This document shows positions 53,423-62,175 of a stretch of DNA of 64,000 nt, piece after piece (the stretch's first letter is position 1; the number at the start of each line of letters is the position of its first letter). Origin of the DNA: a virus; UHGV virus genome UHGV-0371537; one strand, written 5' to 3'. A model generated the notes under the pieces. It was not told where the DNA came from. It did no database searches and saw only the letters and a list, made by a program, of their open reading frames with translations. The translations under genes were made by a program, and so were the position numbers.

Positions 53423-55441
53423 ATGTCAGAATTTAAGCCCTTCGCAGTAGCTGTTAACAACAACGTGCTGGCCATGTCAGCAACTGGTCTGTTCATGACC
53501 AACATCGATAAAGATGCTCTGTGGGATCTGTATCTGTCTTCTTTCCCTGCTGGCACCAACCCGCTCTACCGTGAGCGTACCGAGCACGACTGCACCTGCT
53601 GCAAACAATTCATCCGTAATATCGGTGGTGTGGTTACCATCGACACTGACCTGAACGTGATCTCTATCTGGGATAACATTCAGCTGGGCAACGAATACGA
53701 CGTTGTCGCTGCGGCGCTGTCTGCGTATGTCAAGCAACACGCAATCGTCGACGTGTACTTCAACGATACCAAGAAAGTCGGTGTTGAGTCGAATCACGAA
53801 ATGAAAGACGGTAATGTCCGCACCTACAACCACTTCCACACCGACCTGCTGCCCAGCTATGTTCTGCGGGCTGATGCCATCGCTTCTAAGAAGGGTGAAA
53901 TCCGTCAGGCGATTGAAGTGTTTGAGCGCGGCCTGCGTGAACTGTCTCTGGAATCGGCTGAAATCGTTCTGGAATTGATCGACCAGAATTCTCTGTATCG
54001 CGGTGAAGAGCACAAGGCGGCAGTGCAGGCGTTCGTGGTGAACAAGACCCTGTACGAACAGACTGCAGAAGAGAAACGCGCTCTGTGGGCTTGGCGCACT
54101 GGCTATCATGCGAACGGTCATACCCCTCACGGCATTCGTAATACCGTGATTGGCTCTCTGTTGGTAGACCTCAACGAAGGCCGCGACCTGGAAACCGCCG
54201 TCAAGTCTTTCGAAGCCAAAGTAGCTCCGACGAACTACAAGCGCCCAACCGCGCTGGTAACTAAGTCGATGATCGAAAATGCGCAGAAAGAAGTTGAAGC
54301 GCTGGGTCTGACCGATTCACTGGGTCGCCGTTATGCCGTGTATGACGATCTGACCATCAACAACGTTCTGTTTGCCGACCTGGCAGCACAGAAGAAGATG
54401 GACCCGTTTGCTCAGCTGGCGTCTGAAGTGAAGACTCCGACCAAGTCCCTGGACAAGGTTGAAGAGATCACCATCGACGACTTCCTGGCGAACGTGCTGC
54501 CGAAAGCGCACTCAATGGAAGTGCTGGTTGAGAACTCTCACACTGGCAACCTGATGTCCCTGATCGCTCCGGCTACGGCAGGTGCTCCTAACCTGTTCAA
54601 GTGGAACAACGGCTTCAGCTGGTCATACAACGGTGAAGTGGCCGACTCCATCAAAGAGCGCGTGAAGACAGCAGGTGGCAACGTTGACGGTTTCCTCCGT
54701 GTGTCGCTGGCGTGGCATAACAACGACGACCTGGATCTGAGCCTGAACGATCCTTTACACAATCATGTGTATTACCACAACCGTCGCTCAGCAACTGGCG
54801 CAACCCTGGATATCGACATGAACGGTATGGACGGCATTGACCCGAATCGCCGCCCGGTGGAGAACATCTTCTTCAGCGATGAGCGCAAGCTGCGTAATGG
54901 TCTGTACGAGTTCTATGTCACTAACTTCAGCCAGCGTGAAACCTGTGATATGGGCTTCGAAATCGAAGTCGAATACAAAGGCCAGACCAAGCGTTTTTCG
55001 CATCCTGGCCTGAAGCACAAAGATCGCACTCTGGCTGTTGTGATTGATGTCCGCGCCGGACAGGTGGTAGACATCCGCTCTACTCTGAAAGACGATGCTC
55101 GTTCTCAGGAAATCTGGGGCATCAAGACCTCGGTCTTCCAGAAGGTACAGCTGGTTCTGAACTCACCAAACCATTGGGACGGCGAGCAGACGGGCAACAA
55201 GCACGTGTTCTTCATCCTGGAAGGTTGTGCTAACCCTGTCGGCACTCGTGGCTTCTATAACGAATATCTGAAGCCGGAACTGGATAAACACCGTAAGGTT
55301 TTTGAAATGTTAGGTAGTAAGATGAAAGTACAGCCAAGCACTGAGCAGCTGTCCGGTCTGGGCTTCTCTACCACCCAACGCAACCACGTGTTCGTGAAGG
55401 TGAGCGGCTCGTTCAACCGCACTGTAAAAGTTGTGTTCTAA
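53423..55441 (+). CDS. hypothetical protein (672 aa), unknown function
   Basis: Uninterrupted 2-kb ORF; no Walker, HxGH or other motif recognised. Confidence 0.55.
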   Translation: MSEFKPFAVAVNNNVLAMSATGLFMTNIDKDALWDLYLSSFPAGTNPLYRERTEHDCTCCKQFIRNIGGVVTIDTDLNVISIWDNIQLGNEYDVVAAALSAYVKQHAIVDVYFNDTKKVGVESNHEMKDGNVRTYNHFHTDLLPSYVLRADAIASKKGEIRQAIEVFERGLRELSLESAEIVLELIDQNSLYRGEEHKAAVQAFVVNKTLYEQTAEEKRALWAWRTGYHANGHTPHGIRNTVIGSLLVDLNEGRDLETAVKSFEAKVAPTNYKRPTALVTKSMIENAQKEVEALGLTDSLGRRYAVYDDLTINNVLFADLAAQKKMDPFAQLASEVKTPTKSLDKVEEITIDDFLANVLPKAHSMEVLVENSHTGNLMSLIAPATAGAPNLFKWNNGFSWSYNGEVADSIKERVKTAGGNVDGFLRVSLAWHNNDDLDLSLNDPLHNHVYYHNRRSATGATLDIDMNGMDGIDPNRRPVENIFFSDERKLRNGLYEFYVTNFSQRETCDMGFEIEVEYKGQTKRFSHPGLKHKDRTLAVVIDVRAGQVVDIRSTLKDDARSQEIWGIKTSVFQKVQLVLNSPNHWDGEQTGNKHVFFILEGCANPVGTRGFYNEYLKPELDKHRKVFEMLGSKMKVQPSTEQLSGLGFSTTQRNHVFVKVSGSFNRTVKVVF

Positions 55442-55484
55442 ACCCTTTTGAAACTGTAACCCATTTATCATTGAGGAAAGTAAA

Positions 55485-55856
55485 ATGTTCGATAAAGCAA
55501 CCCGTCTGAAACTGCGCTTCGAGTCCAACAAAGGTCTGCTGTCTGTTGAGCAGGTTTGGGACCTGAGCCTGACCGCCCTGAACGAAATGGCCAAAGGTCT
55601 GAGCCGTCAGGTGAAGGCAGCGGAAACCGATGAAGAAGATTTCATCGGCACCAAAAGCGCCGTTGACTCCGAACTGCAGCTGCGCTTCGACGTTGTCAAG
55701 CACATTATCGGCGTTAAGCTGAAAGAGCGTGACGACAGCAAAGACGCGGCACAGCGTAAGGCGGACAACCAGGTTATTATGGAGCTGATCCAGCGTAAGA
55801 AACAGCAGGAGCTGGAAGGCAAATCTGTTGAAGAACTGGAAGCGCTGCTGAAATAA
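55485..55856 (+). CDS. hypothetical protein (123 aa)
   Basis: ORF with charged helical C-terminus. Confidence 0.45.
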   Translation: MFDKATRLKLRFESNKGLLSVEQVWDLSLTALNEMAKGLSRQVKAAETDEEDFIGTKSAVDSELQLRFDVVKHIIGVKLKERDDSKDAAQRKADNQVIMELIQRKKQQELEGKSVEELEALLK

Positions 55857-55921
55857 CCCTGTTGGCTCCGGCCTGAGCAACCCCGCCTTGTGCGGGGTTT
55901 CTTTTATCTGAGGAAACCGTT

Positions 55922-56716
55922 ATGACAACCATCAATCGTAATGAACCCAAAGGTGTTGAGCTGAAGGGTAAATCTGTTCGCGAAGGTCTGAAGCTGTCTC
56001 CAGACCTCCTGAAGTCCCACATTGCTGAAGTCATCTATGAAGACCGTGAAGTCGGCGGTCATCGTGTCATCACCTGCCACTTCAAGATGGATAATGGATT
56101 TATCGTCTGGGGCAAGAATAGCTCTACTTCCATCGACCCTGCCAACTTTGATGAAGAGTTGGGTAAGAAGCTGGCCTATGACAAGACCTTCTCTCAGTTG
56201 TGGGAACTGGAAGCCTACCGCGCCGTTGTGGAGAAGCAGATGTTGGAGGTGGCTACCGCCGATGCGAAGATAGACATCTTCCAGTACATCTCCGAAAGGG
56301 GGAAGATAAATCAGATGGCTGGTATGGAATTCTTGCAAGGCCACGGTCAGTCTTTCGTGTTCCGACATCCACGAGACCCAAGCCGGGGTTTCTGTGCTGA
56401 ATTTATTCAGACTGACAACGAACGCCACAACGAACAATTCAATGGTAAATCCCGAGAGAAGGTTGAAACCTATCTGCGTTCGTTCATGCACCCGGATGAA
56501 TTGTATTCTGAACTCGTTGTCCGTCTGGCAAAGACATGCATGGCGGCTTACAAGGGTGGGATCTACTTCAATGCCACCACTTGGGATAAGATGAGCGCCG
56601 AAGAACAGAAAGACTGCTGTGAAGGCATCAGGCGGCTCTTGCTGGCTCCGGCGGATTATATCCCAACTGATCAGAAGGACGCGCTGTTCAAGGCCATCGT
56701 CGATTCCTACAAATAA
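55922..56716 (+). CDS. hypothetical protein (264 aa)
   Basis: ORF immediately upstream of the Prs-like/Nampt-like operon; followed by terminator 56747-56776. Confidence 0.5.
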   Translation: MTTINRNEPKGVELKGKSVREGLKLSPDLLKSHIAEVIYEDREVGGHRVITCHFKMDNGFIVWGKNSSTSIDPANFDEELGKKLAYDKTFSQLWELEAYRAVVEKQMLEVATADAKIDIFQYISERGKINQMAGMEFLQGHGQSFVFRHPRDPSRGFCAEFIQTDNERHNEQFNGKSREKVETYLRSFMHPDELYSELVVRLAKTCMAAYKGGIYFNATTWDKMSAEEQKDCCEGIRRLLLAPADYIPTDQKDALFKAIVDSYK

Positions 56717-56746
56717 CTGAATCAGCAAACTCCTTCAATAACAATG

Positions 56747-56776
56747 ACGCCCAGTATATTTGCTGGGCGTTTCAAT
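56747..56776 (+). terminator. terminator-like hairpin upstream of the Prs-like/Nampt-like operon
   Basis: ACGCCCAG pairs with CTGGGCGT around an 8-nt loop, followed by TTCAATTTGT. Confidence 0.5.
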
Positions 56777-56789
56777 TTGTGCATCACAG

Positions 56790-56795
56790 TATAAT
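56790..56795 (+). promoter_or_regulatory. candidate sigma70-type -10 element (TATAAT) for the Prs-like/Nampt-like operon
   Basis: TATAAT 31 nt upstream of ATG 56827 and just after terminator 56747-56776; -35 region (GTTTCA) is imperfect. Confidence 0.3.
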
Positions 56796-56826
56796 ACGAC
56801 TGTACAATACACCATGAGGCTACATT

Positions 56827-57681
56827 ATGTTTCGTTTGAAATTGAACGACCAAGATGTGTTCTATAAGCACTTCACCTTCCCAGGTGGTGAGGAACATAT
56901 CAAGATCCAAAAGGCTGGAATCCCTATCGGCCACGTCCAGAACGTGGTGATTGATGCTCACATCAAATCCTCTGCTGACTTCGTTGAGCTGGCACTGCTG
57001 GTTAACGCTGTTCGTGGCCTGGGTAACGTGGACCGTCTGACGGCATTCCATGCATATATCCCGTACTTCCCATATGCGCGTCAGGATCGTCATTGTGACT
57101 TTGGTGAGCCTCTGTCCGTGAAGTGGGCGGCTGAGTTCATCAACAGCATGAACTTTGACCGCGTGGCGATCAAAGACCCTCATAGCCATGTCGTGTCTTC
57201 TCTGATCAACAACGTCCATGTGGTCCCGCAAGATTACATCGTGCGTCAATATCTGGGCTGGTTCATTCGCGGCAACAATGCTGTGCTGGTAGCCCCTGAC
57301 GGCGGCGCGGCGAAGAAGACCGAAGCCCTCAGCCTGTCATTGGACGGCGTTCCTGTTGTCTACGGACACAAGAACCGTGACACCAAGACTGGTGAGATCA
57401 TTGGGGTGAGTATTACAAACCCTGAACTGATCAAAGACCGCTATCTGGTTGTGGTTGATGATATCTGCGACGGTGGGCGCACGTTTGTTGAGCTGGGCAA
57501 AGAGCTTCAGAAGCACGAGCCTAAGCACATGACGCTCTTCGTCACCCATGGCATCTTCAGCAAAGGTCTCTCTGTTTTCGACGGGATCTATGATGCTGTG
57601 TATGCCGACACTGTCTGGTGGGAGAACATCACCGCCGACGGTCTTCCTTTCAAAACTGAAAATACAGGACGTGTAAAATGA
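56827..57681 (+). CDS. ribose-phosphate pyrophosphokinase (Prs) family protein; candidate ADPR-pyrophosphate synthetase (Adps-like)
   Basis: YARQDR motif and phosphoribosyl-pyrophosphate binding loop VVVDDICDGGRT; 284 aa; 4-nt overlap with the downstream Nampt-like gene. Confidence 0.8.
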   Translation: MFRLKLNDQDVFYKHFTFPGGEEHIKIQKAGIPIGHVQNVVIDAHIKSSADFVELALLVNAVRGLGNVDRLTAFHAYIPYFPYARQDRHCDFGEPLSVKWAAEFINSMNFDRVAIKDPHSHVVSSLINNVHVVPQDYIVRQYLGWFIRGNNAVLVAPDGGAAKKTEALSLSLDGVPVVYGHKNRDTKTGEIIGVSITNPELIKDRYLVVVDDICDGGRTFVELGKELQKHEPKHMTLFVTHGIFSKGLSVFDGIYDAVYADTVWWENITADGLPFKTENTGRVK

Positions 57682-59342
57682 GCATGCGCCACTTAGATCC
57701 GATCCATGCAATCGACTTCTACAAATCAGGGCACATCTATCAGTTCCCTGAAGGCAGCGAGCTGGTGTTCTCCAACGGAACTCCGCGCTCCAACAAACTG
57801 TTCAACTCTCACCTGCCGAAGAACGGCGTGGTGGTCTGGGGCATCCAGGGCTTCATGACTTGGTTCCATGAACTGTTTGACGAAGCATTCTTCCAGCGCC
57901 CGAAGGCCAAGGTGTTGAAGAAGTATGCCCGTCGCATGAACAAAGTCCTGGGTCCAGGTCGTGTTGGTACAGAGCATATTGAAGCCCTGCATGACCTCGG
58001 CTACCTGCCTATCGAAGTCCGTGCGCTGCCCGAAGGCACCATGTGTCCGTATGGCGTTCCGGTGTATGTGATGTTCAACACCTTGCCGGAGTTCTACTGG
58101 CTGACCAACTATCTGGAGACTGTGTTCAGCTCTGAGATCTGGAAGCCGATGACGAACGCCACCATCGCCCTGCATTACAAGGCACTGATGGTGAAAGCCG
58201 CTATCGCTACAGGTGTGTCGCCGGACCATTGGTTCATCGACTACCAAGGCCACGACTTCTCCTTCCGTGGCATGAGCGGGTGGCATGACGCGGCGTCTTC
58301 CGGTTCCGGCCATTTGGTATTCTTCAAAGGCACCGATACCAACCCTGCCCTGGACTTCGTAGAAGAGTATTATGGCGCAGACATCGACGAAGACTATGTC
58401 GTTGCTGGTTCTGTTGCGGCTACCGAACACGCCGTGATGTGTATGGGCACGAAGGATGGTGAATTCGAAACCTTCCGCCGCCTGGTGCAGGACGTGTATC
58501 CTGATGGCATCGTCAGTATCGTATCTGATGCATGGGATTACTGGCAGGTCATCGACGACTATCTCCCTCGCCTGAAAGACATTATCATGGCGCGTAACGG
58601 TAAAGTCGTGATCCGCCCCGACTCGGGCGACCCAGTACACATCGTTGGCGGCTACCGCATCGAGGGGTTCAAAGACCGCGCCACGCTGAACATCAGCGGC
58701 GTGTCTAGCAGCACCGAAGTCATTCACATCGAAGAGACGAACACCTATCACCTGATCACAGGCGAAGGCACGATCAATTCTCTGATGGCAGACGACCGTA
58801 ATATCATCAGCCGTTCTGAAGCAGTCGGCTCTATCCAGCGCCTGTGGGAGATCTTTGGCGGTACTCAAACTGAGACTGGTCACTTCCTTTTGGATGATCA
58901 CATCGGTCTGATCTACGGCGACTCCATCACCCTGGCACGTGAAGACCAGATCTTTAGCCGTCTGGCTGGCCGGAACTTCGCTTCCATCAACGTGGTGTTC
59001 GGTATCGGTTCCTACACCTACCAGATGAACACCCGTGACAGTACTGGCACGGCAGTGAAAGCCACGGCTGGTAAAGTGAACGGCGAATTCCGTGAGATCT
59101 TCAAAGAGCCGAAGACCGACAAAGGCGGGACTAAAAAGTCTGCACGTGGTTTCCTTAAAGTCATTAAAGACTCTCAGGGTAAACTAGTGTTGGTTGACGG
59201 TATCACCTTTGATCAGGTACAAGACGCCGACAACCAGCACCAACTGGTGTATCGTGATGGTAAGTTCTTCAACACTCAGACTCTGGAAGATGCGCGTGTT
59301 CGTGCTGCTCCTCTGGTGGCGGAACTGGCCTCACAAATCTGA
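57678..59342 (+). CDS. nicotinamide phosphoribosyltransferase (Nampt/NadV) family protein; candidate nicotinamide ADPR transferase (Namat-like)
   Basis: GHDFSFRGMSG and surrounding region resemble Nampt family; 554 aa; coupled to the Prs-like gene. Confidence 0.8.
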   Translation: MSMRHLDPIHAIDFYKSGHIYQFPEGSELVFSNGTPRSNKLFNSHLPKNGVVVWGIQGFMTWFHELFDEAFFQRPKAKVLKKYARRMNKVLGPGRVGTEHIEALHDLGYLPIEVRALPEGTMCPYGVPVYVMFNTLPEFYWLTNYLETVFSSEIWKPMTNATIALHYKALMVKAAIATGVSPDHWFIDYQGHDFSFRGMSGWHDAASSGSGHLVFFKGTDTNPALDFVEEYYGADIDEDYVVAGSVAATEHAVMCMGTKDGEFETFRRLVQDVYPDGIVSIVSDAWDYWQVIDDYLPRLKDIIMARNGKVVIRPDSGDPVHIVGGYRIEGFKDRATLNISGVSSSTEVIHIEETNTYHLITGEGTINSLMADDRNIISRSEAVGSIQRLWEIFGGTQTETGHFLLDDHIGLIYGDSITLAREDQIFSRLAGRNFASINVVFGIGSYTYQMNTRDSTGTAVKATAGKVNGEFREIFKEPKTDKGGTKKSARGFLKVIKDSQGKLVLVDGITFDQVQDADNQHQLVYRDGKFFNTQTLEDARVRAAPLVAELASQI

Positions 59343-59349
59343 TAACCGA

Positions 59350-59371
59350 AGGGGAGGCAACTCCCCTGTTT
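59350..59371 (+). terminator. terminator-like hairpin after the Nampt-like gene
   Basis: AGGGGAG-GCAA-CTCCCCT followed by GTTT. Confidence 0.5.
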
Positions 59372-59383
59372 CGAGGTCGAGGA

Positions 59384-59554
59384 ATGTCCAAACCATTCAA
59401 AAATGCGGGTGTCGACAACCTCGACCGCCGCTTTAGCCCATCGGAAACGCTGATGAGTCAGATTGAACTCAATCGCGATTTCCTGGAACATATGCTGGTC
59501 AAGCCGGAAGGTGAGGCCGAAGACAACCCTGAAGAAGGCAATAACGATGATTGA
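59384..59554 (+). CDS. small acidic protein (56 aa)
   Basis: ATG 59384 after terminator hairpin; stop overlaps the start of the vWA gene; below ORF-track cutoff. Confidence 0.3.
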   Translation: MSKPFKNAGVDNLDRRFSPSETLMSQIELNRDFLEHMLVKPEGEAEDNPEEGNNDD

Positions 59555-61808
59555 ATCCCTGGAGTTTAAGAATGCGGTTTCGACTGTTGCTCCGTCCAAC
59601 CATGTAATCGTTGTGGACATCTCTTATTCGATGTACCGTGCGCTCCCTGAAGTCCGTAAGCACCTGAAGGAGAACCTGCCTTCCCTGGTGAAACCGGAAG
59701 ACACTGTGAGCCTCCTATACTTCTCATCCCGTGGCGACTTTGGTACTGTGTTCTCTGGTCGCCAGATCAGTGTTGCGTCTGATCTGAGCGAGCTGAACAA
59801 ACTGATTGATCGCTTCCTGCAACCATCCGGCTGTACTGGTTTTGTTGAACCTCTGGGTCTGGCGGTAGATACTGCGCGCAGTCTGAAGAAACCCGGCTAT
59901 GTCAACAACCTGGCATTCATGACCGATGGTTATGACAACTGCTGGCGCTCCAATGAGATCCTGGCCGTTGCCGAAACCTTGCCATTCGTCTTTGATAACA
60001 TCACTTTCATCGAATACGGCTGGTACTGTAACCGCGAACTGCTGGCTCAGATGTCTGAGCGTTCCGGCGCGACTCACGTGTTCGCCGAAGGCCAGACTGA
60101 ATATCAGACTGAGCTGGAAAACGTGTTGAAGTCCTCGGTGCCGAAGGTTCGTGTTGACGTTCCTCTGGTGTACACTCACGCCATTTATGTCGAAAACGGC
60201 GTAGCAACCGTGCTGGCGGTGCAAGCCGAAGCAAGAATGGATTTCCAGATTGGCGATGAGTCCGTAAAACGGAAAGTGATTGAAGTAGGCCACGTGAGCA
60301 TCCCTGAGAGCGTCACGAAGCTGTGGGTTGTCAATCCTAACATGATCGACCAGCTTGATGCGCTGGCGGACATCCAGGCGGCATACGTGCTGGCGTTCTA
60401 CGGCGTACACATCATGGACGCAGACCTGGTGTGGGCTGCACTGAAGAAAACGGGCGACGTTCGCTTCATCAAACAGTACAGCAACTGCTTCACCAAGCAG
60501 GACTACTCCAACATCAAAGTTGATCTGACCCAGGCCATCGTTGATGACCAGCTGCGCGGCGTTGATGGTATCGATTACAATATGGTCCCGGCTGAAGATG
60601 CCACGACCGTGGTTGATGTGCTGACGTACCTGGCCGAAGCTGGCGTGTCTGTTGCCACCAAGCACCCGATGTTCTCCTACAAGAGTATCGGTCGCGGTAC
60701 TGTACAGAAAGCCGACGACACCGAAGACAAACTGGCCGAAGAAATCGCGAACGCCCAGTCCAAAGAAGAGCGCAAAGCCCTGGCTCTCAAGCTGGCCGAG
60801 CACGAAGAGTGGACGCCGTCGTTTGAACCTGCCAATGATCTGGGTGTGGTTCCAATCAGCGACCTGGTCTATAACTCCGAGCGCCCGAACATCAGTGTGC
60901 GGACAGTGCAGCATGGTACTGTTGCAGTTCCTGAGTTCGCGCAGAAGAAGTACGGCCTGCCTGAAGAACTTGACACCTTCCAGTGGCGCAATTACACCAT
61001 CGTCAAAGATGGTATCATCAACGTGAAGACTCTACCGTTTAGACATACCGAATCACCAGTCCGGGGTGCTGAGGTTGTGCAAAAGCTGATCGAGATGGGC
61101 GTTCACGTGTTTGGTGGTCCAGAAGTGTTCATCTTGAACCTGGAAAGCGTACCGCTGGTCAACCGTGCGATGGTCAAGAACATCAGTGCTGCTCAGTTCT
61201 TTGCGGACAATGTCCGCCTGGAAGCCCTGAAAGGCAAGCAGAAGGTGCTGAAGTTCTATCGCGACGCTCTGGTTGGTAAAGGCAATGCCAAAGGTCTGGC
61301 TATTCAGTACGGCGCTGAGGCCGCAGAATACCTGTCTGGTGTTGGCATTCGCGATTACGGCTTCTCGCCGAAGACTGAGACCAAGGAGTCTACCGACTTC
61401 TACATGAGCCGTGAGCTGAACGTTAAGATCGCTGGCGCTTCTTCCCTGCCGAGCATCGCAGCGGTACAGAAGAAGATTGCCGACAAAAAGACTCTCAATG
61501 CGGGTGATATGTTCATCGCCAATGCCCTGAAAGAGTACGATGCATTCGTGAAGTCCCCGGCGATCACTGCCGTGCCTGAAGCCGTACAGAAACAGCTGAT
61601 CGAAAACTGGATCGACGCTGCTGCCAAGGCGGCCATCACTGAAGTCCGCGCTCTGAACAAGACGCTGTCTAAAGTGGTTTATGGTATCGTTGCTGGCCAC
61701 GGCTGGTTCACCGACCTCGACCTGGAAGAGTCCACCATGGAAGTTGAAGTGGATGGCGTGAAGTACAAGGTCACTGCCGAACTGGCAGAGAAAGAGATCA
61801 AAATCTAA
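59547..61808 (+). CDS. von Willebrand factor A (vWA) domain protein (754 aa)
   Basis: MIDAS-like VIVVDISYS (DxSxS) and downstream MTDGYDN near the N-terminus; start taken at ATG 59547 (track start 59463). Confidence 0.6.
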   Translation: MIESLEFKNAVSTVAPSNHVIVVDISYSMYRALPEVRKHLKENLPSLVKPEDTVSLLYFSSRGDFGTVFSGRQISVASDLSELNKLIDRFLQPSGCTGFVEPLGLAVDTARSLKKPGYVNNLAFMTDGYDNCWRSNEILAVAETLPFVFDNITFIEYGWYCNRELLAQMSERSGATHVFAEGQTEYQTELENVLKSSVPKVRVDVPLVYTHAIYVENGVATVLAVQAEARMDFQIGDESVKRKVIEVGHVSIPESVTKLWVVNPNMIDQLDALADIQAAYVLAFYGVHIMDADLVWAALKKTGDVRFIKQYSNCFTKQDYSNIKVDLTQAIVDDQLRGVDGIDYNMVPAEDATTVVDVLTYLAEAGVSVATKHPMFSYKSIGRGTVQKADDTEDKLAEEIANAQSKEERKALALKLAEHEEWTPSFEPANDLGVVPISDLVYNSERPNISVRTVQHGTVAVPEFAQKKYGLPEELDTFQWRNYTIVKDGIINVKTLPFRHTESPVRGAEVVQKLIEMGVHVFGGPEVFILNLESVPLVNRAMVKNISAAQFFADNVRLEALKGKQKVLKFYRDALVGKGNAKGLAIQYGAEAAEYLSGVGIRDYGFSPKTETKESTDFYMSRELNVKIAGASSLPSIAAVQKKIADKKTLNAGDMFIANALKEYDAFVKSPAITAVPEAVQKQLIENWIDAAAKAAITEVRALNKTLSKVVYGIVAGHGWFTDLDLEESTMEVEVDGVKYKVTAELAEKEIKI

Positions 61809-61851: not shown

Positions 61852-62175
61852 ATGAGCGGTAAACCAACATATGTTGAGGTAATGCGCCACCTGGCCCGGT
61901 ACGCCACCGATAATCTGAATATGGATCTGTGGCGTGACGATGACAAGCGCAAACTGCTGGATGATGTGGCGGCTCAAAACGAGGATGCCCTGGACAAGCT
62001 GGCTGGCCTCCGCACCAAGAAAGACCTCGGCGGCGACGAACTCGATGCCATAGAAATCGTAATGGATCTCGAAGAAGAGTTTCAGGTCGAAATCGACGAC
62101 GGTTGGCTGGGTAGTAAAGGCGATGACCCGACCATGGGTGAACTCGCTGAACTCGTGGTCGCCCTGCGCAAATAA
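61852..62175 (+). CDS. acyl-carrier-protein-like protein with Glu in place of the phosphopantetheine Ser
   Basis: LGGDELDAIEIVMDLEEEFQVEI parallels ACP [23 protein letters not shown], with DSL replaced by DEL (GAA codon). Confidence 0.5.
   Translation: MSGKPTYVEVMRHLARYATDNLNMDLWRDDDKRKLLDDVAAQNEDALDKLAGLRTKKDLGGDELDAIEIVMDLEEEFQVEIDDGWLGSKGDDPTMGELAELVVALRK

What the first reader, a model, noticed from the sequence alone, without database searches (positions are those of the whole stretch)
56747..59371. Terminator-flanked Prs-like + Nampt-like operon: candidate NAD+ reconstitution (Adps/Namat-type) counter-defence module
Two translationally coupled genes (4-nt overlap) sit as their own transcription unit between hairpin terminators at 56747-56776 and 59350-59371, with a TATAAT element upstream. 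The first product carries the PRPP-synthetase hallmarks YARQDR and VVVDDICDGGRT; the second resembles nicotinamide phosphoribosyltransferase (GHDFSFRGMSG region). No NMN adenylyltransferase (HxGH) gene is visible in the window, so a classical Nampt-to-NMNAT salvage route would be incomplete here. A Prs-like kinase paired with a Nampt-like transferase is the architecture reported for phage NAD+ reconstitution pathway 1 (ADP-ribose to ADPR-pyrophosphate to NAD+), which counters NAD-depleting immunity. Sequence alone cannot tell ribose-5-phosphate from ADP-ribose specificity.
Basis: partly seen in the sequence, partly recalled or inferred. Interest (0 to 1): 0.85.

Follow-up and report, generated by a model that had tools for sequence, protein, structure and literature searches.

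The report
Phage NAD+ rebuilding operon (NARP1)

Summary
Window 56827-57681 (284 aa, Prs-like) and 57678-59342 (554 aa, Nampt-like) overlap by ATGA. They lie between a strong hairpin (56746-56771) and a weaker one (59350-59367), with a conserved GTATAAT upstream.

The window comes from an Agtrevirus-type Ackermannviridae phage (95.8% DNA identity to Salmonella phage SW16-7). Gene 1 groups with experimentally validated Adps proteins and away from true Prs (200/200 bootstraps). It fails every NCBIfam Prs cut-off and keeps the catalytic Lys. Gene 2 is closest to the crystallised SPbetaL1 Namat (9W5X). It keeps all catalytic and NAD-contact residues and carries the Namat clamp motif (GSYTYQMNTRD), with Met in place of one stacking aromatic. 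No NMNAT was found in the window or in the closest complete genome.

The NARP1 interpretation is supported by homology, not by assay. It is not new. Osterman et al. (2024) list the orthologues from SKML-39 and P46FS4 (95.7% and 94.7% DNA identity to this operon) as Adps homologues and Adps-associated Namat homologues. An Ackermannviridae review already makes the link to NAD+ depletion.

Only the claim of a self-contained transcription unit is weakly supported.

The parts
56746..56771 (+). Hairpin after the upstream gene (stop at 56716), 11-bp stem, followed by TTTCAATTTG. Probably the terminator of the upstream gene.
   Evidence: Fold -23.5 kcal/mol for 56717-56800, z = -4.2. Substitutions in relatives keep pairing through G-U wobbles. 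The Klebsiella (Taipeivirus-type) loci L014 and L019 carry a different hairpin (CCCCGCC...GCGGGG) at the same site.
56770..56795 (+). Conserved promoter-like element TTTCAATTTGTGCATCACAGTATAAT (-10-like TATAAT at 56790-56795)
   Evidence: GTATAAT is invariant in 12 of 12 relatives, including those without the operon. There is no -35 hexamer and the sigma-70 scan was negative. Function is inferred, not shown.
56816..56819 (+). Shine-Dalgarno-like GAGG, 7 nt before the adps ATG
   Evidence: Read from the sequence.
56827..57681 (+). adps: ADP-ribose pyrophosphate synthetase homologue (284 aa, Prs fold)
   Evidence: Orthologues are listed in Osterman Suppl. Table 1.
57678..59342 (+). namat: nicotinamide ADP-ribose transferase homologue (554 aa, Nampt fold). 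AGGA lies 9 nt before the ATG, and the start overlaps the adps stop (ATGA).
   Evidence: Orthologues are listed as 'Adps-associated' in Osterman Suppl. Table 2.
58653..58826 (+). Lineage-variable insertion in Namat (aa 326-383) after the PDSGDPV active-site strand. Predicted to be a folded alpha/beta mini-domain.
   Evidence: Absent from SPbetaL1 Namat. The linker is 22-23 aa in about half of 120 homologues and 40-102 aa in many others; it is about 69 aa in the Agtrevirus group and 99 aa in Bas63. Ten-residue-block mean pLDDT is 91-98.
59350..59372 (+). Hairpin AGGGGAG-GCAA-CUCCCCU followed by GUUUC. A weak terminator or RNA-stability element 8 nt after the namat stop.
   Evidence: z = -1.6. 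Stems are invariant while the loop varies (GCAA, GAGA, GAAA, GGAA) in 7 relatives. Not reported by the terminator scan.

Best explanation
The two genes are a NARP1 operon (NAD+ reconstitution pathway 1) of an Agtrevirus-type Ackermannviridae phage. When a host SIR2-, TIR- or SEFIR-type defence system cleaves NAD+ into ADP-ribose and nicotinamide, the first enzyme (Adps, Prs fold) uses ATP to pyrophosphorylate ADP-ribose to ADPR-PP. The second enzyme (Namat, Nampt fold) displaces the pyrophosphate with nicotinamide and so regenerates NAD+ directly, with no need for an NMN adenylyltransferase. This keeps NAD+ available for phage replication.

Shown here: gene structure, clade membership, conservation of catalytic and ligand-contact residues, absence of NMNAT, purifying selection, and cassette-like presence or absence among relatives. 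Inferred from characterised homologues (Bas63, SPbetaL1, FADO): the two reactions and the anti-defence phenotype. Translational coupling (ATGA overlap) and transcription from the conserved GTATAAT element are inferred from the sequence.
For: Published listing and organism:
- The window is Ackermannviridae/Agtrevirus (95.8% DNA identity to SW16-7).
- Osterman et al. Suppl. Tables list the SKML-39 and P46FS4 orthologues as Adps homologues with Namat within 10 genes, and as 'Adps-associated' Namat.

Adps:
- An NJ tree of 191 core columns separates three true Prs (E. coli, M. smegmatis, human) from all 16 phage sequences, including the window and the validated Bas63, SPbetaL1 and FADO proteins, in 200 of 200 bootstraps.
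- All NCBIfam Prs models score below cut-off (TIGR01251 105 vs 113; the equivalog and subfamily models 47-93 vs 296-536).
- The match to Bas63 Adps is E 8e-33; the best PDB Prs is 5e-18.
- The catalytic Lys (SPbetaL1 K162) corresponds to K182.

Namat:
- The best PDB match is SPbetaL1 Namat 9W5X/9W5W (E 2.5e-135). H. ducreyi NadV scores 1e-105 and human NAMPT 7e-50.
- The top Foldseek hit is 9W5X, with target-normalised TM-score 0.95.
- Namat-clade phage proteins are 36-47% identical (E < 1e-90); the KVP40-type Nampt clade is 25-29% identical.
- D13, Y15, F194, R197, D220, A248, H251, R313, D315, G414, D415, G444, S445, T452, R453 and D454 are all conserved.
- The SCH motif GSYTYQMNTRD fits GSX-phi-X-phi-X-phi-TRD (PMC12774641). 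All 120 top homologues carry it.
- The third residue of the SCL is Lys, as in Bas63.

Other:
- No NMNAT in the window or in SW16-7.
- dN/dS is 0.01-0.10 for both genes.
- The operon is lost or broken in several relatives, as expected of an accessory counter-defence cassette (PMC10791037).
Against: I found no biochemical or genetic test of any Ackermannviridae copy in the paper library, so the assignment rests on homologues that are 28-48% identical.

Two residues that stack on adenine in characterised Namat proteins are not aromatic here. SCH position 7 is Met450 (Tyr in SPbetaL1 and Bas63). The SCL residue after Lys40 is Leu41 (Trp in Bas63). The published SPbetaL1 double mutant at the corresponding pair of positions (R40A/Y396K) lost 2.4-fold activity.

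SPbetaL1 Namat can also make NMN from PRPP in vitro, so some Nampt-like activity cannot be excluded.

My tree has only three Prs outgroup sequences.
Confidence: 0.85

Rival explanations
1. Classical salvage, as the database annotations say. Gene 1 is a PRPP synthetase and gene 2 a nicotinamide phosphoribosyltransferase making NMN. Host NadR or PncC completes NAD+ synthesis, or the PRPP feeds nucleotide synthesis for replication.
For: Pfam, PHROG and GenBank names say this. NCBIfam NF006629 passes its cut-off for gene 2 (471 vs 405). The Prs ATP, Mg and ribose motifs are conserved. Namat retains NMN-forming activity in vitro. Sorensen et al. 2023 proposed a role in nucleotide supply.
Against: Gene 1 fails every Prs model cut-off and separates from true Prs in 200 of 200 bootstraps. 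The homologous SPbetaL1 enzyme yielded no product in the control assay reported to show it is not a Prs, and Bas63 still overcame SIR2-HerA in a pncC nadR double-deletion host. Gene 2 has the Namat clamp motif, not the Nampt loops (GGGLLQQLDRD in the KVP40 type, GAQTYQRNTRD in HdNadV).
Confidence: 0.06
2. A relaxed-specificity variant. Because Met450 and Leu41 replace adenine-stacking aromatics, the Agtrevirus Namat uses both ADPR-PP and PRPP to a comparable extent. It would therefore serve both as a counter-defence and as a general NAD+ or NMN booster.
For: The clamp deviations. Clamp mutants of SPbetaL1 Namat lose NAD+ synthesis but keep NMN synthesis. Met at position 7 is a minority state (13 of 120 homologues).
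Against: Tyr446 at SCH position 3, the residue whose loss hurt most in double mutants, is retained. Met and Leu can still pack against adenine. The gene remains tightly paired with adps under strong purifying selection. No NMNAT is present to use any NMN.
Confidence: 0.08
3. A decaying, non-functional cassette, given that relatives carry deletions and a fusion.
For: L017 has an internal deletion, phiD3 a 333-nt remnant, and Ag3 an in-frame fusion. A221 and CAU_YEP3 lack the operon.
Against: Both ORFs are intact in the window. All catalytic residues are conserved. dN/dS is 0.01-0.10 against five relatives.
Confidence: 0.01

Closest known systems
NARP1 of Escherichia phage Bas63 (JohannRWettstein) genes 79-80; Osterman et al. 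2024 (bioRxiv 10.1101/2024.02.11.579819; Nature)
   Same: The same two-gene order (adps then namat) in a virulent phage of enterobacteria. The Adps loop DDICDGGRTF is identical. The Namat SCL is of the same type (TPRS[ND]K.FNS). There is an insertion at the same site in Namat. The Bas63 operon was shown by deletion to counter SIR2-HerA and to yield ADPR-PP in vivo.
   Different: Only 34% (Adps) and 46% (Namat) identical. The window genes overlap by 4 nt; the Bas63 genes are 45 nt apart. The window has Leu41 and Met450 where Bas63 has Trp and Tyr. The insertion is shorter (about 69-aa vs 99-aa linker).
NARP1 of Bacillus phage SPbetaL1 (Adps WIT26982, Namat WIT26983; PDB 9W5X/9W5W; PMC12774641)
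   Same: The biochemically and structurally defined reference. All catalytic and NAD+-contact residues align. The SCH frame GS-x-T-Y-Q-x-N-TRD is the same. Foldseek target-normalised TM-score is 0.95.
   Different: 28% (Adps) and 48% (Namat) identical. SPbetaL1 Adps has DDLSSFGGT rather than DDICDGGRT. Its Namat lacks the 58-aa insertion, has a 4-residue shorter SCL with Arg40 as the stacking residue, and has Tyr396 where the window has Met450.
Catalogued orthologues in Ackermannviridae (SKML-39 JX181829_00048/49, P46FS4 MT078988_00049/50, ChubbyThor, 0507-KN2-1) in Osterman Suppl. Tables 1-2. Called 'NAMPT/RPPK' in Sorensen 2023 (PMC10791037) and in the review PMC11721090.
   Same: The same genes at the same locus. 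Related Agtrevirus genomes give up to 99.3% (Adps, SW16-7) and 99.6% (Namat, MK-13) protein identity; SKML-39 and P46FS4 match the operon at 94.7-95.7% DNA identity. The cluster representative P0001 is named for ChubbyThor.
   Different: Nothing material; these are allelic differences only. None of these copies has been tested experimentally, as far as the paper library shows.
NARP2 (KVP40 NadV Nampt + NatV Nmnat/Nudix)
   Same: Nampt-fold enzyme, and the same purpose of restoring NAD+.
   Different: Its Nampt is from a different clade (25-29% identity). It has a GGGLLQQLDRD loop. It needs an Nmnat, which is absent here, and it has no Adps.
NARP1-AP (Adps - Macro-domain phosphatase Adpp - Namat; bioRxiv 10.64898/2026.01.28.702374)
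   Same: Shares the core Adps and Namat genes.
   Different: There is no third gene in the window operon, and the flanking ORFs have no Macro domain. By that paper's logic the window phage should remain sensitive to aRES, which produces ADPR-1''-phosphate.

Membership tests
NARP1 (Adps + Namat) | Adjacent, co-oriented adps and namat genes | tested here: met
   56827-57681 and 57678-59342 on the same strand with an ATGA overlap. The overlap is conserved in SW16-7 and 0507-KN2-1.
NARP1 (Adps + Namat) | First enzyme belongs to the Adps clade, separate from cellular Prs | tested here: met
   The split between Prs and phage sequences has 200 of 200 bootstraps. The sequence is below all NCBIfam Prs cut-offs. 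Orthologues appear in the published Adps table with Namat nearby. Caveat: only three Prs sequences served as outgroup.
NARP1 (Adps + Namat) | Adps catalytic lysine (SPbetaL1 K162; the K162A mutant is inactive) | tested here: met
   K182 in GHKNRD aligns with K162.
NARP1 (Adps + Namat) | Second enzyme belongs to the Adps-associated Namat clade, not the Nampt clade | tested here: met
   455 bits to 9W5X Namat, 358 to HdNadV and 173 to human NAMPT. The tblastn identities split into 36-47% for the Namat clade and 25-29% for the Nampt clade. Orthologues are labelled 'Adps-associated' in the published table.
NARP1 (Adps + Namat) | Namat catalytic core (SPbetaL1 F189, D215, catalytic His, R306, D308) | tested here: met
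   F194, D220, H251, R313 and D315 are invariant in alignments A2 and A3.
NARP1 (Adps + Namat) | [quoted passage not shown] | tested here: inconclusive
   GSYTYQMNTRD has the right frame and length, and position 3 is Tyr. Position 7 is Met rather than Tyr or Phe. Met occurs in 13 of 120 homologues. The true Nampt HdNadV has Gln and Arg at positions 3 and 7.
NARP1 (Adps + Namat) | Selectivity-clamp loop: the third residue is Arg, Lys or Tyr, and it or the next residue stacks on adenine | tested here: inconclusive
   In the SNKLF segment the third residue is Lys40, which meets the rule. The next residue is Leu41, where Bas63 has Trp; Phe42 follows. Stacking cannot be judged without a dimer-ligand model.
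NARP1 (Adps + Namat) | ADPR + ATP gives ADPR-PP, and ADPR-PP + nicotinamide gives NAD+, with ADPR-PP preferred over PRPP | not testable with these tools
   Needs enzyme assays.
NARP1 (Adps + Namat) | Counters NAD+-depleting defence systems in vivo | not testable with these tools
   Needs a deletion mutant and plaque assays.
Ribose-phosphate diphosphokinase (Prs, class I) | Scores above the curated family cut-offs | tested here: not met
   TIGR01251 scores 105.1 against a cut-off of 113. NF002320 scores 83 against 297. The other equivalog and subfamily models score 47-93 against 296-536.
NARP2 (Nampt + Nmnat) | An Nmnat gene in the same genome | tested here: not met
   No phmmer or motif hit in the window or in the complete SW16-7 genome, and none is annotated. 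Caveat: the queries were E. coli NadR and NadD only, not a NadM/NatV-type sequence.
NARP1-AP (with Adpp) | A Macro-domain phosphatase gene inside or next to the operon | tested here: not met
   The operon has two genes. The flanking ORFs give only Phage_gp49_66, PP-binding, or no Pfam hit.

The most novel reading that the evidence does not exclude
The Agtrevirus/Kuttervirus/Taipeivirus Namat may be a functional variant. [quoted passage not shown] That would make it more than a plain orthologue of the characterised enzymes.
Probability: 0.08. Interest if true: 0.45.

Novelty: already known. Interest (0 to 1): 0.12.

Why it matters
NARP1 explains how a phage can ignore a whole class of NAD+-depleting immune systems (Thoeris I, DSR1/2, SIR2-HerA, SEFIR). 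Ackermannviridae phages are candidates for therapy and biocontrol of Salmonella, Shigella, E. coli and Klebsiella, so presence or absence of the cassette could help predict host range on strains with such systems. That point is already in the literature. The window adds one more intact copy and no new biology.

Tried and rejected
- Sigma-70 promoter scan of 55000-61000: nothing found. The TTTCAA-N14-TATAAT element occurs only twice in the window, so it is not a recurrent phage promoter motif.
- PHROG families do not separate Adps from Prs or Namat from Nampt. E. coli Prs scores 193 bits on phrog_619 and KVP40-type Nampt scores 548 on phrog_448, so I did not use them for membership.
- My first bootstrap summary gave meaningless low values because of rooting. 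I recomputed the supports as bipartitions.
- I looked for an Adps crystal structure or paper on which to base a substrate-pocket comparison. None is in the PDB copy or the paper library.
- I did not obtain a KVP40 NatV sequence. It is not near nadV in the PVA8 locus I fetched. The NMNAT search therefore used E. coli NadR and NadD plus motifs only.
- A loose H.GH...SxTxxR screen gave one hit at window 9803. It lies upstream of the start of a tail-spike gene and I rejected it.
- Covariation in the hairpins cannot be tested rigorously. The relatives are too similar, and only wobble-compatible changes and one wholesale hairpin replacement were seen.
Full report
**What is there.** The region holds two co-oriented ORFs, 56827..57681 (284 aa) and 57678..59342 (554 aa). 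The second start codon overlaps the first stop codon as ATGA. GAGG lies 7 nt before the first ATG and AGGA lies 9 nt before the second. Pfam assigns Pribosyltran_N plus Pribosyltran to gene 1 and NAPRTase to gene 2.

**Source organism.** The window comes from an Ackermannviridae phage of the Agtrevirus type. The operon matches Salmonella phage SW16-7 at 95.8% DNA identity, followed by P46FS4, Shigella phages ChubbyThor and MK-13, and SKML-39. In all, 92 phage records match it, nearly all named for enterobacterial hosts (Klebsiella, Salmonella, Dickeya, Shigella, Escherichia). The neighbourhood is the replication module: clamp, clamp loader, regA, UvsW, RNase H and gp55.

**Flanking signals.**
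- The upstream hairpin (56746-56771, 11-bp stem) is strong, with z = -4.2 against shuffles. It sits 30 nt after the stop of the preceding gene.
- Across 12 relatives its substitutions stay compatible with pairing through G-U wobbles. The two Klebsiella (Taipeivirus-type) loci carry a different GC-rich hairpin at the same site.
- Directly after it comes TTTCAATTTGTGCATCACAGTATAAT. GTATAAT is invariant in all 12 relatives. There is no -35 hexamer and the sigma-70 scan found nothing.
- The downstream hairpin (59350-59367) is weak, with z = -1.6 and only three U after it. Its stem is invariant while its loop varies among relatives.
- In relatives that lack the operon (E. coli phage A221, Yersinia phage CAU_YEP3), the same upstream hairpin plus GTATAAT element lies directly before the next small gene.
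- My reading is that the cassette sits between a conserved promoter-like element and the downstream genes (a 56-aa ORF, a vWA-type protein and an acyl carrier protein). Calling it a fully insulated transcription unit is only partly supported.

**Gene 1 is Adps-like, not Prs.**
- It scores below the curated cut-off of every NCBIfam Prs model: TIGR01251 gives 105 against 113, and the equivalog and subfamily models give 47-93 against 296-536.
- Its best solved-structure match is M. smegmatis Prs at only 5e-18. The validated Bas63 Adps matches at 8e-33.
- I built a neighbour-joining tree on 191 core columns. It contained the window protein, 15 other phage proteins from the Osterman table (among them the validated Bas63, SPbetaL1 and FADO Adps) and three true Prs (E. 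coli, M. smegmatis, human PRPS2). The Prs sequences split from all phage sequences in 200 of 200 bootstraps.
- The catalytic lysine, whose K162A mutation inactivates SPbetaL1 Adps, corresponds to K182.
- The loop DDICDGGRTF is identical to that of Bas63 Adps.

**Gene 2 is Namat-like, not Nampt.**
- The best PDB sequence matches are 9W5X and 9W5W (E 2.5e-135). PMC12774641 identifies these as SPbetaL1 Namat. H. ducreyi NadV follows at 1e-105 and mammalian NAMPT at about 1e-49.
- An AlphaFold2 model (pLDDT 94.6) gives the same order by Foldseek. The target-normalised TM-score to 9W5X is 0.95.
- Among phages, tblastn identities split into two groups. The Namat clade gives 36-47% identity with E < 1e-90. 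The KVP40/T4-like Nampt clade gives 25-29% identity with E of 1e-19 to 1e-44.
- All residues that contact nicotinamide, the NMN ribose-phosphate and the AMP phosphate in the 9W5W structure are conserved, including the catalytic His251 and Arg313, which corresponds to R306.
- The published diagnostic motif of the clamp helix is GSX-phi-X-phi-X-phi-TRD. It reads GSYTYQMNTRD here, against GGGLLQQLDRD in a KVP40-type Nampt and GAQTYQRNTRD in HdNadV.
- All 120 closest database homologues carry the Namat form.
- Two bacterial chromosomal homologues that carry the motif also have an Adps-like gene one or two genes away. The motif therefore tracks pairing with Adps.

**Deviations from the characterised enzymes.**
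- Position 7 of the clamp helix is Met450. It is Tyr in SPbetaL1 and Bas63. Met occurs in 13 of 120 homologues and is fixed in the closest Ackermannviridae-type cluster representatives (P0001, P0002).
- In the clamp loop the third residue is Lys40, as in Bas63. The following residue, which stacks on adenine in the Bas63 model, is Leu41 rather than Trp.
- In SPbetaL1, single clamp mutations cost 1.3-1.7-fold activity and the R40A/Y396K double mutant 2.4-fold. Combinations involving F392 cost far more. The F392 equivalent, Tyr446, is retained here.
- I score these two membership features as inconclusive rather than failed.
- The protein also has a 58-aa insertion (aa 326-383) after the PDSGDPV strand. 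This site is a length hot-spot in the family: the linker is 22-23 aa in about half of the homologues and 40-102 aa in many others, with 99 aa in Bas63. The insertion is predicted to be a folded alpha/beta mini-domain.

**No NMNAT.** phmmer with E. coli NadR and NadD against all six-frame ORFs of the window and of the complete SW16-7 genome found nothing at E <= 10. No GxFxPxHxGH-type motif is present. The SW16-7 annotation lists none. Osterman et al. report no phage that carries both NARP1 and NARP2. The limitation is that I had no NadM/NatV-type query.

**Selection and distribution.** Both genes are under strong purifying selection, with dN/dS of 0.01-0.10 against five relatives. The cassette is nevertheless dispensable:
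- An IMG/VR relative (L017) joins window position 56972 to 58803, which destroys both genes.
- Dickeya phage phiD3 retains a 333-nt remnant.
- A221 and CAU_YEP3 lack the operon.
- Shigella phage Ag3 carries an in-frame fusion of Adps residues 1-222 to Namat residues 226-554.
- Sorensen et al. found the pair in 8 of 14 Agtrevirus genomes.

This pattern fits an accessory counter-defence module.

**Mechanism.** By homology with Bas63, SPbetaL1 and FADO, Adps would pyrophosphorylate ADP-ribose with ATP, and Namat would join ADPR-PP to nicotinamide to give NAD+. This would neutralise defence systems that cleave NAD+ to ADPR and nicotinamide. The operon has no Macro-domain Adpp gene. By the logic of the aRES paper, it should therefore not protect against aRES, which yields ADPR-1''-phosphate. 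All enzymatic and phenotypic steps are inferred; none has been tested in an Ackermannviridae phage, as far as the paper library shows.

**Novelty.** None. The pathway was published in 2024. Its supplementary tables list the orthologues from SKML-39, P46FS4, ChubbyThor, Ag3 and 0507-KN2-1. The 2024 Ackermannviridae review already links these NAMPT and RPPK genes to evasion of NAD+ depletion.

Noticed in passing
L017 3501-3774 (IMGVR_UViG_3300045988_107072); L020 3294-3626 (Dickeya phage phiD3); L021, L022: The NARP1 slot is a variable cassette in Ackermannviridae. One relative joins window 56972 to 58803, destroying both genes. phiD3 keeps a 333-nt remnant. Yersinia phage CAU_YEP3 and E. coli phage A221 lack the operon, but keep the upstream hairpin plus GTATAAT element directly before the next gene.
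   Followed up: partly
Shigella phage Ag3 (FJ373894_00125; P0009, 547 aa); corresponds to window 56827-57492 fused to 58353-59342: Ag3 encodes an in-frame chimera of Adps residues 1-222 and Namat residues 226-554, with the junction at a shared FVE tripeptide. PHROG phrog_12872 (547 positions) is built on this chimera, which is why both window proteins hit it on different halves.
   Followed up: partly
L023 4321-7923 (Chitinophaga caseinilytica chromosome); L024 3361-8174 (Fibrella aestuarina chromosome): These Bacteroidota chromosomes carry a Nudix/NrtR-type regulator gene in the same cluster as an Adps-like gene (DDICDGGGTF; 41% identical to the window Adps, 190 bits against 78 for E. coli Prs) and a Namat-like gene (GS[FY]TYEYVTRD). 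The regulator abuts the Adps-like gene in Fibrella and the Namat-like gene in Chitinophaga. The clusters sit beside ADP-ribosylglycohydrolase or Tpt1 (PTS_2-RNA) genes. This suggests a regulated housekeeping ADPR-to-NAD+ recycling operon in bacteria.
   Followed up: partly
window 58653-58826 (Namat aa 326-383): There is an insertion hot-spot in the Namat family just after the PDSGDPV active-site strand. The linker ranges from 22 to 102 aa among 120 homologues. The window's insert is predicted to be a confident alpha/beta mini-domain of unknown role.
   Followed up: partly
PDB 9KE8/9KEO (H. ducreyi NadV) against window Namat aa 442-454: HdNadV, deposited as a Nampt and solved in complex with NMN, is much closer to the Namat clade (358 bits) than mammalian NAMPT is. 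It shares the loop frame (GAQTYQRNTRD) but has Gln and Arg where Namat has aromatics, so it is a useful negative control for the clamp motif.
   Followed up: yes
window 59384-59554, 59463-61808, 61852-62175: Downstream of the operon lie a conserved 56-aa ORF (phrog_8656), a protein of about 733-781 aa annotated as vWA-domain in relatives (no Pfam hit here), and an acyl carrier protein homologue (PP-binding, phrog_4154). Their function in the phage is unknown.
   Followed up: no
window 55857-55921, compared with L002 10841-11242 and L017 2202-2595: The window lacks a gene of about 400 nt (133-143 aa, hypothetical) that SW16-7 and an IMG/VR relative carry between the 123-aa and 264-aa (Phage_gp49_66 domain) genes. 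A canonical terminator (55879-55899) occupies the gap.
   Followed up: no
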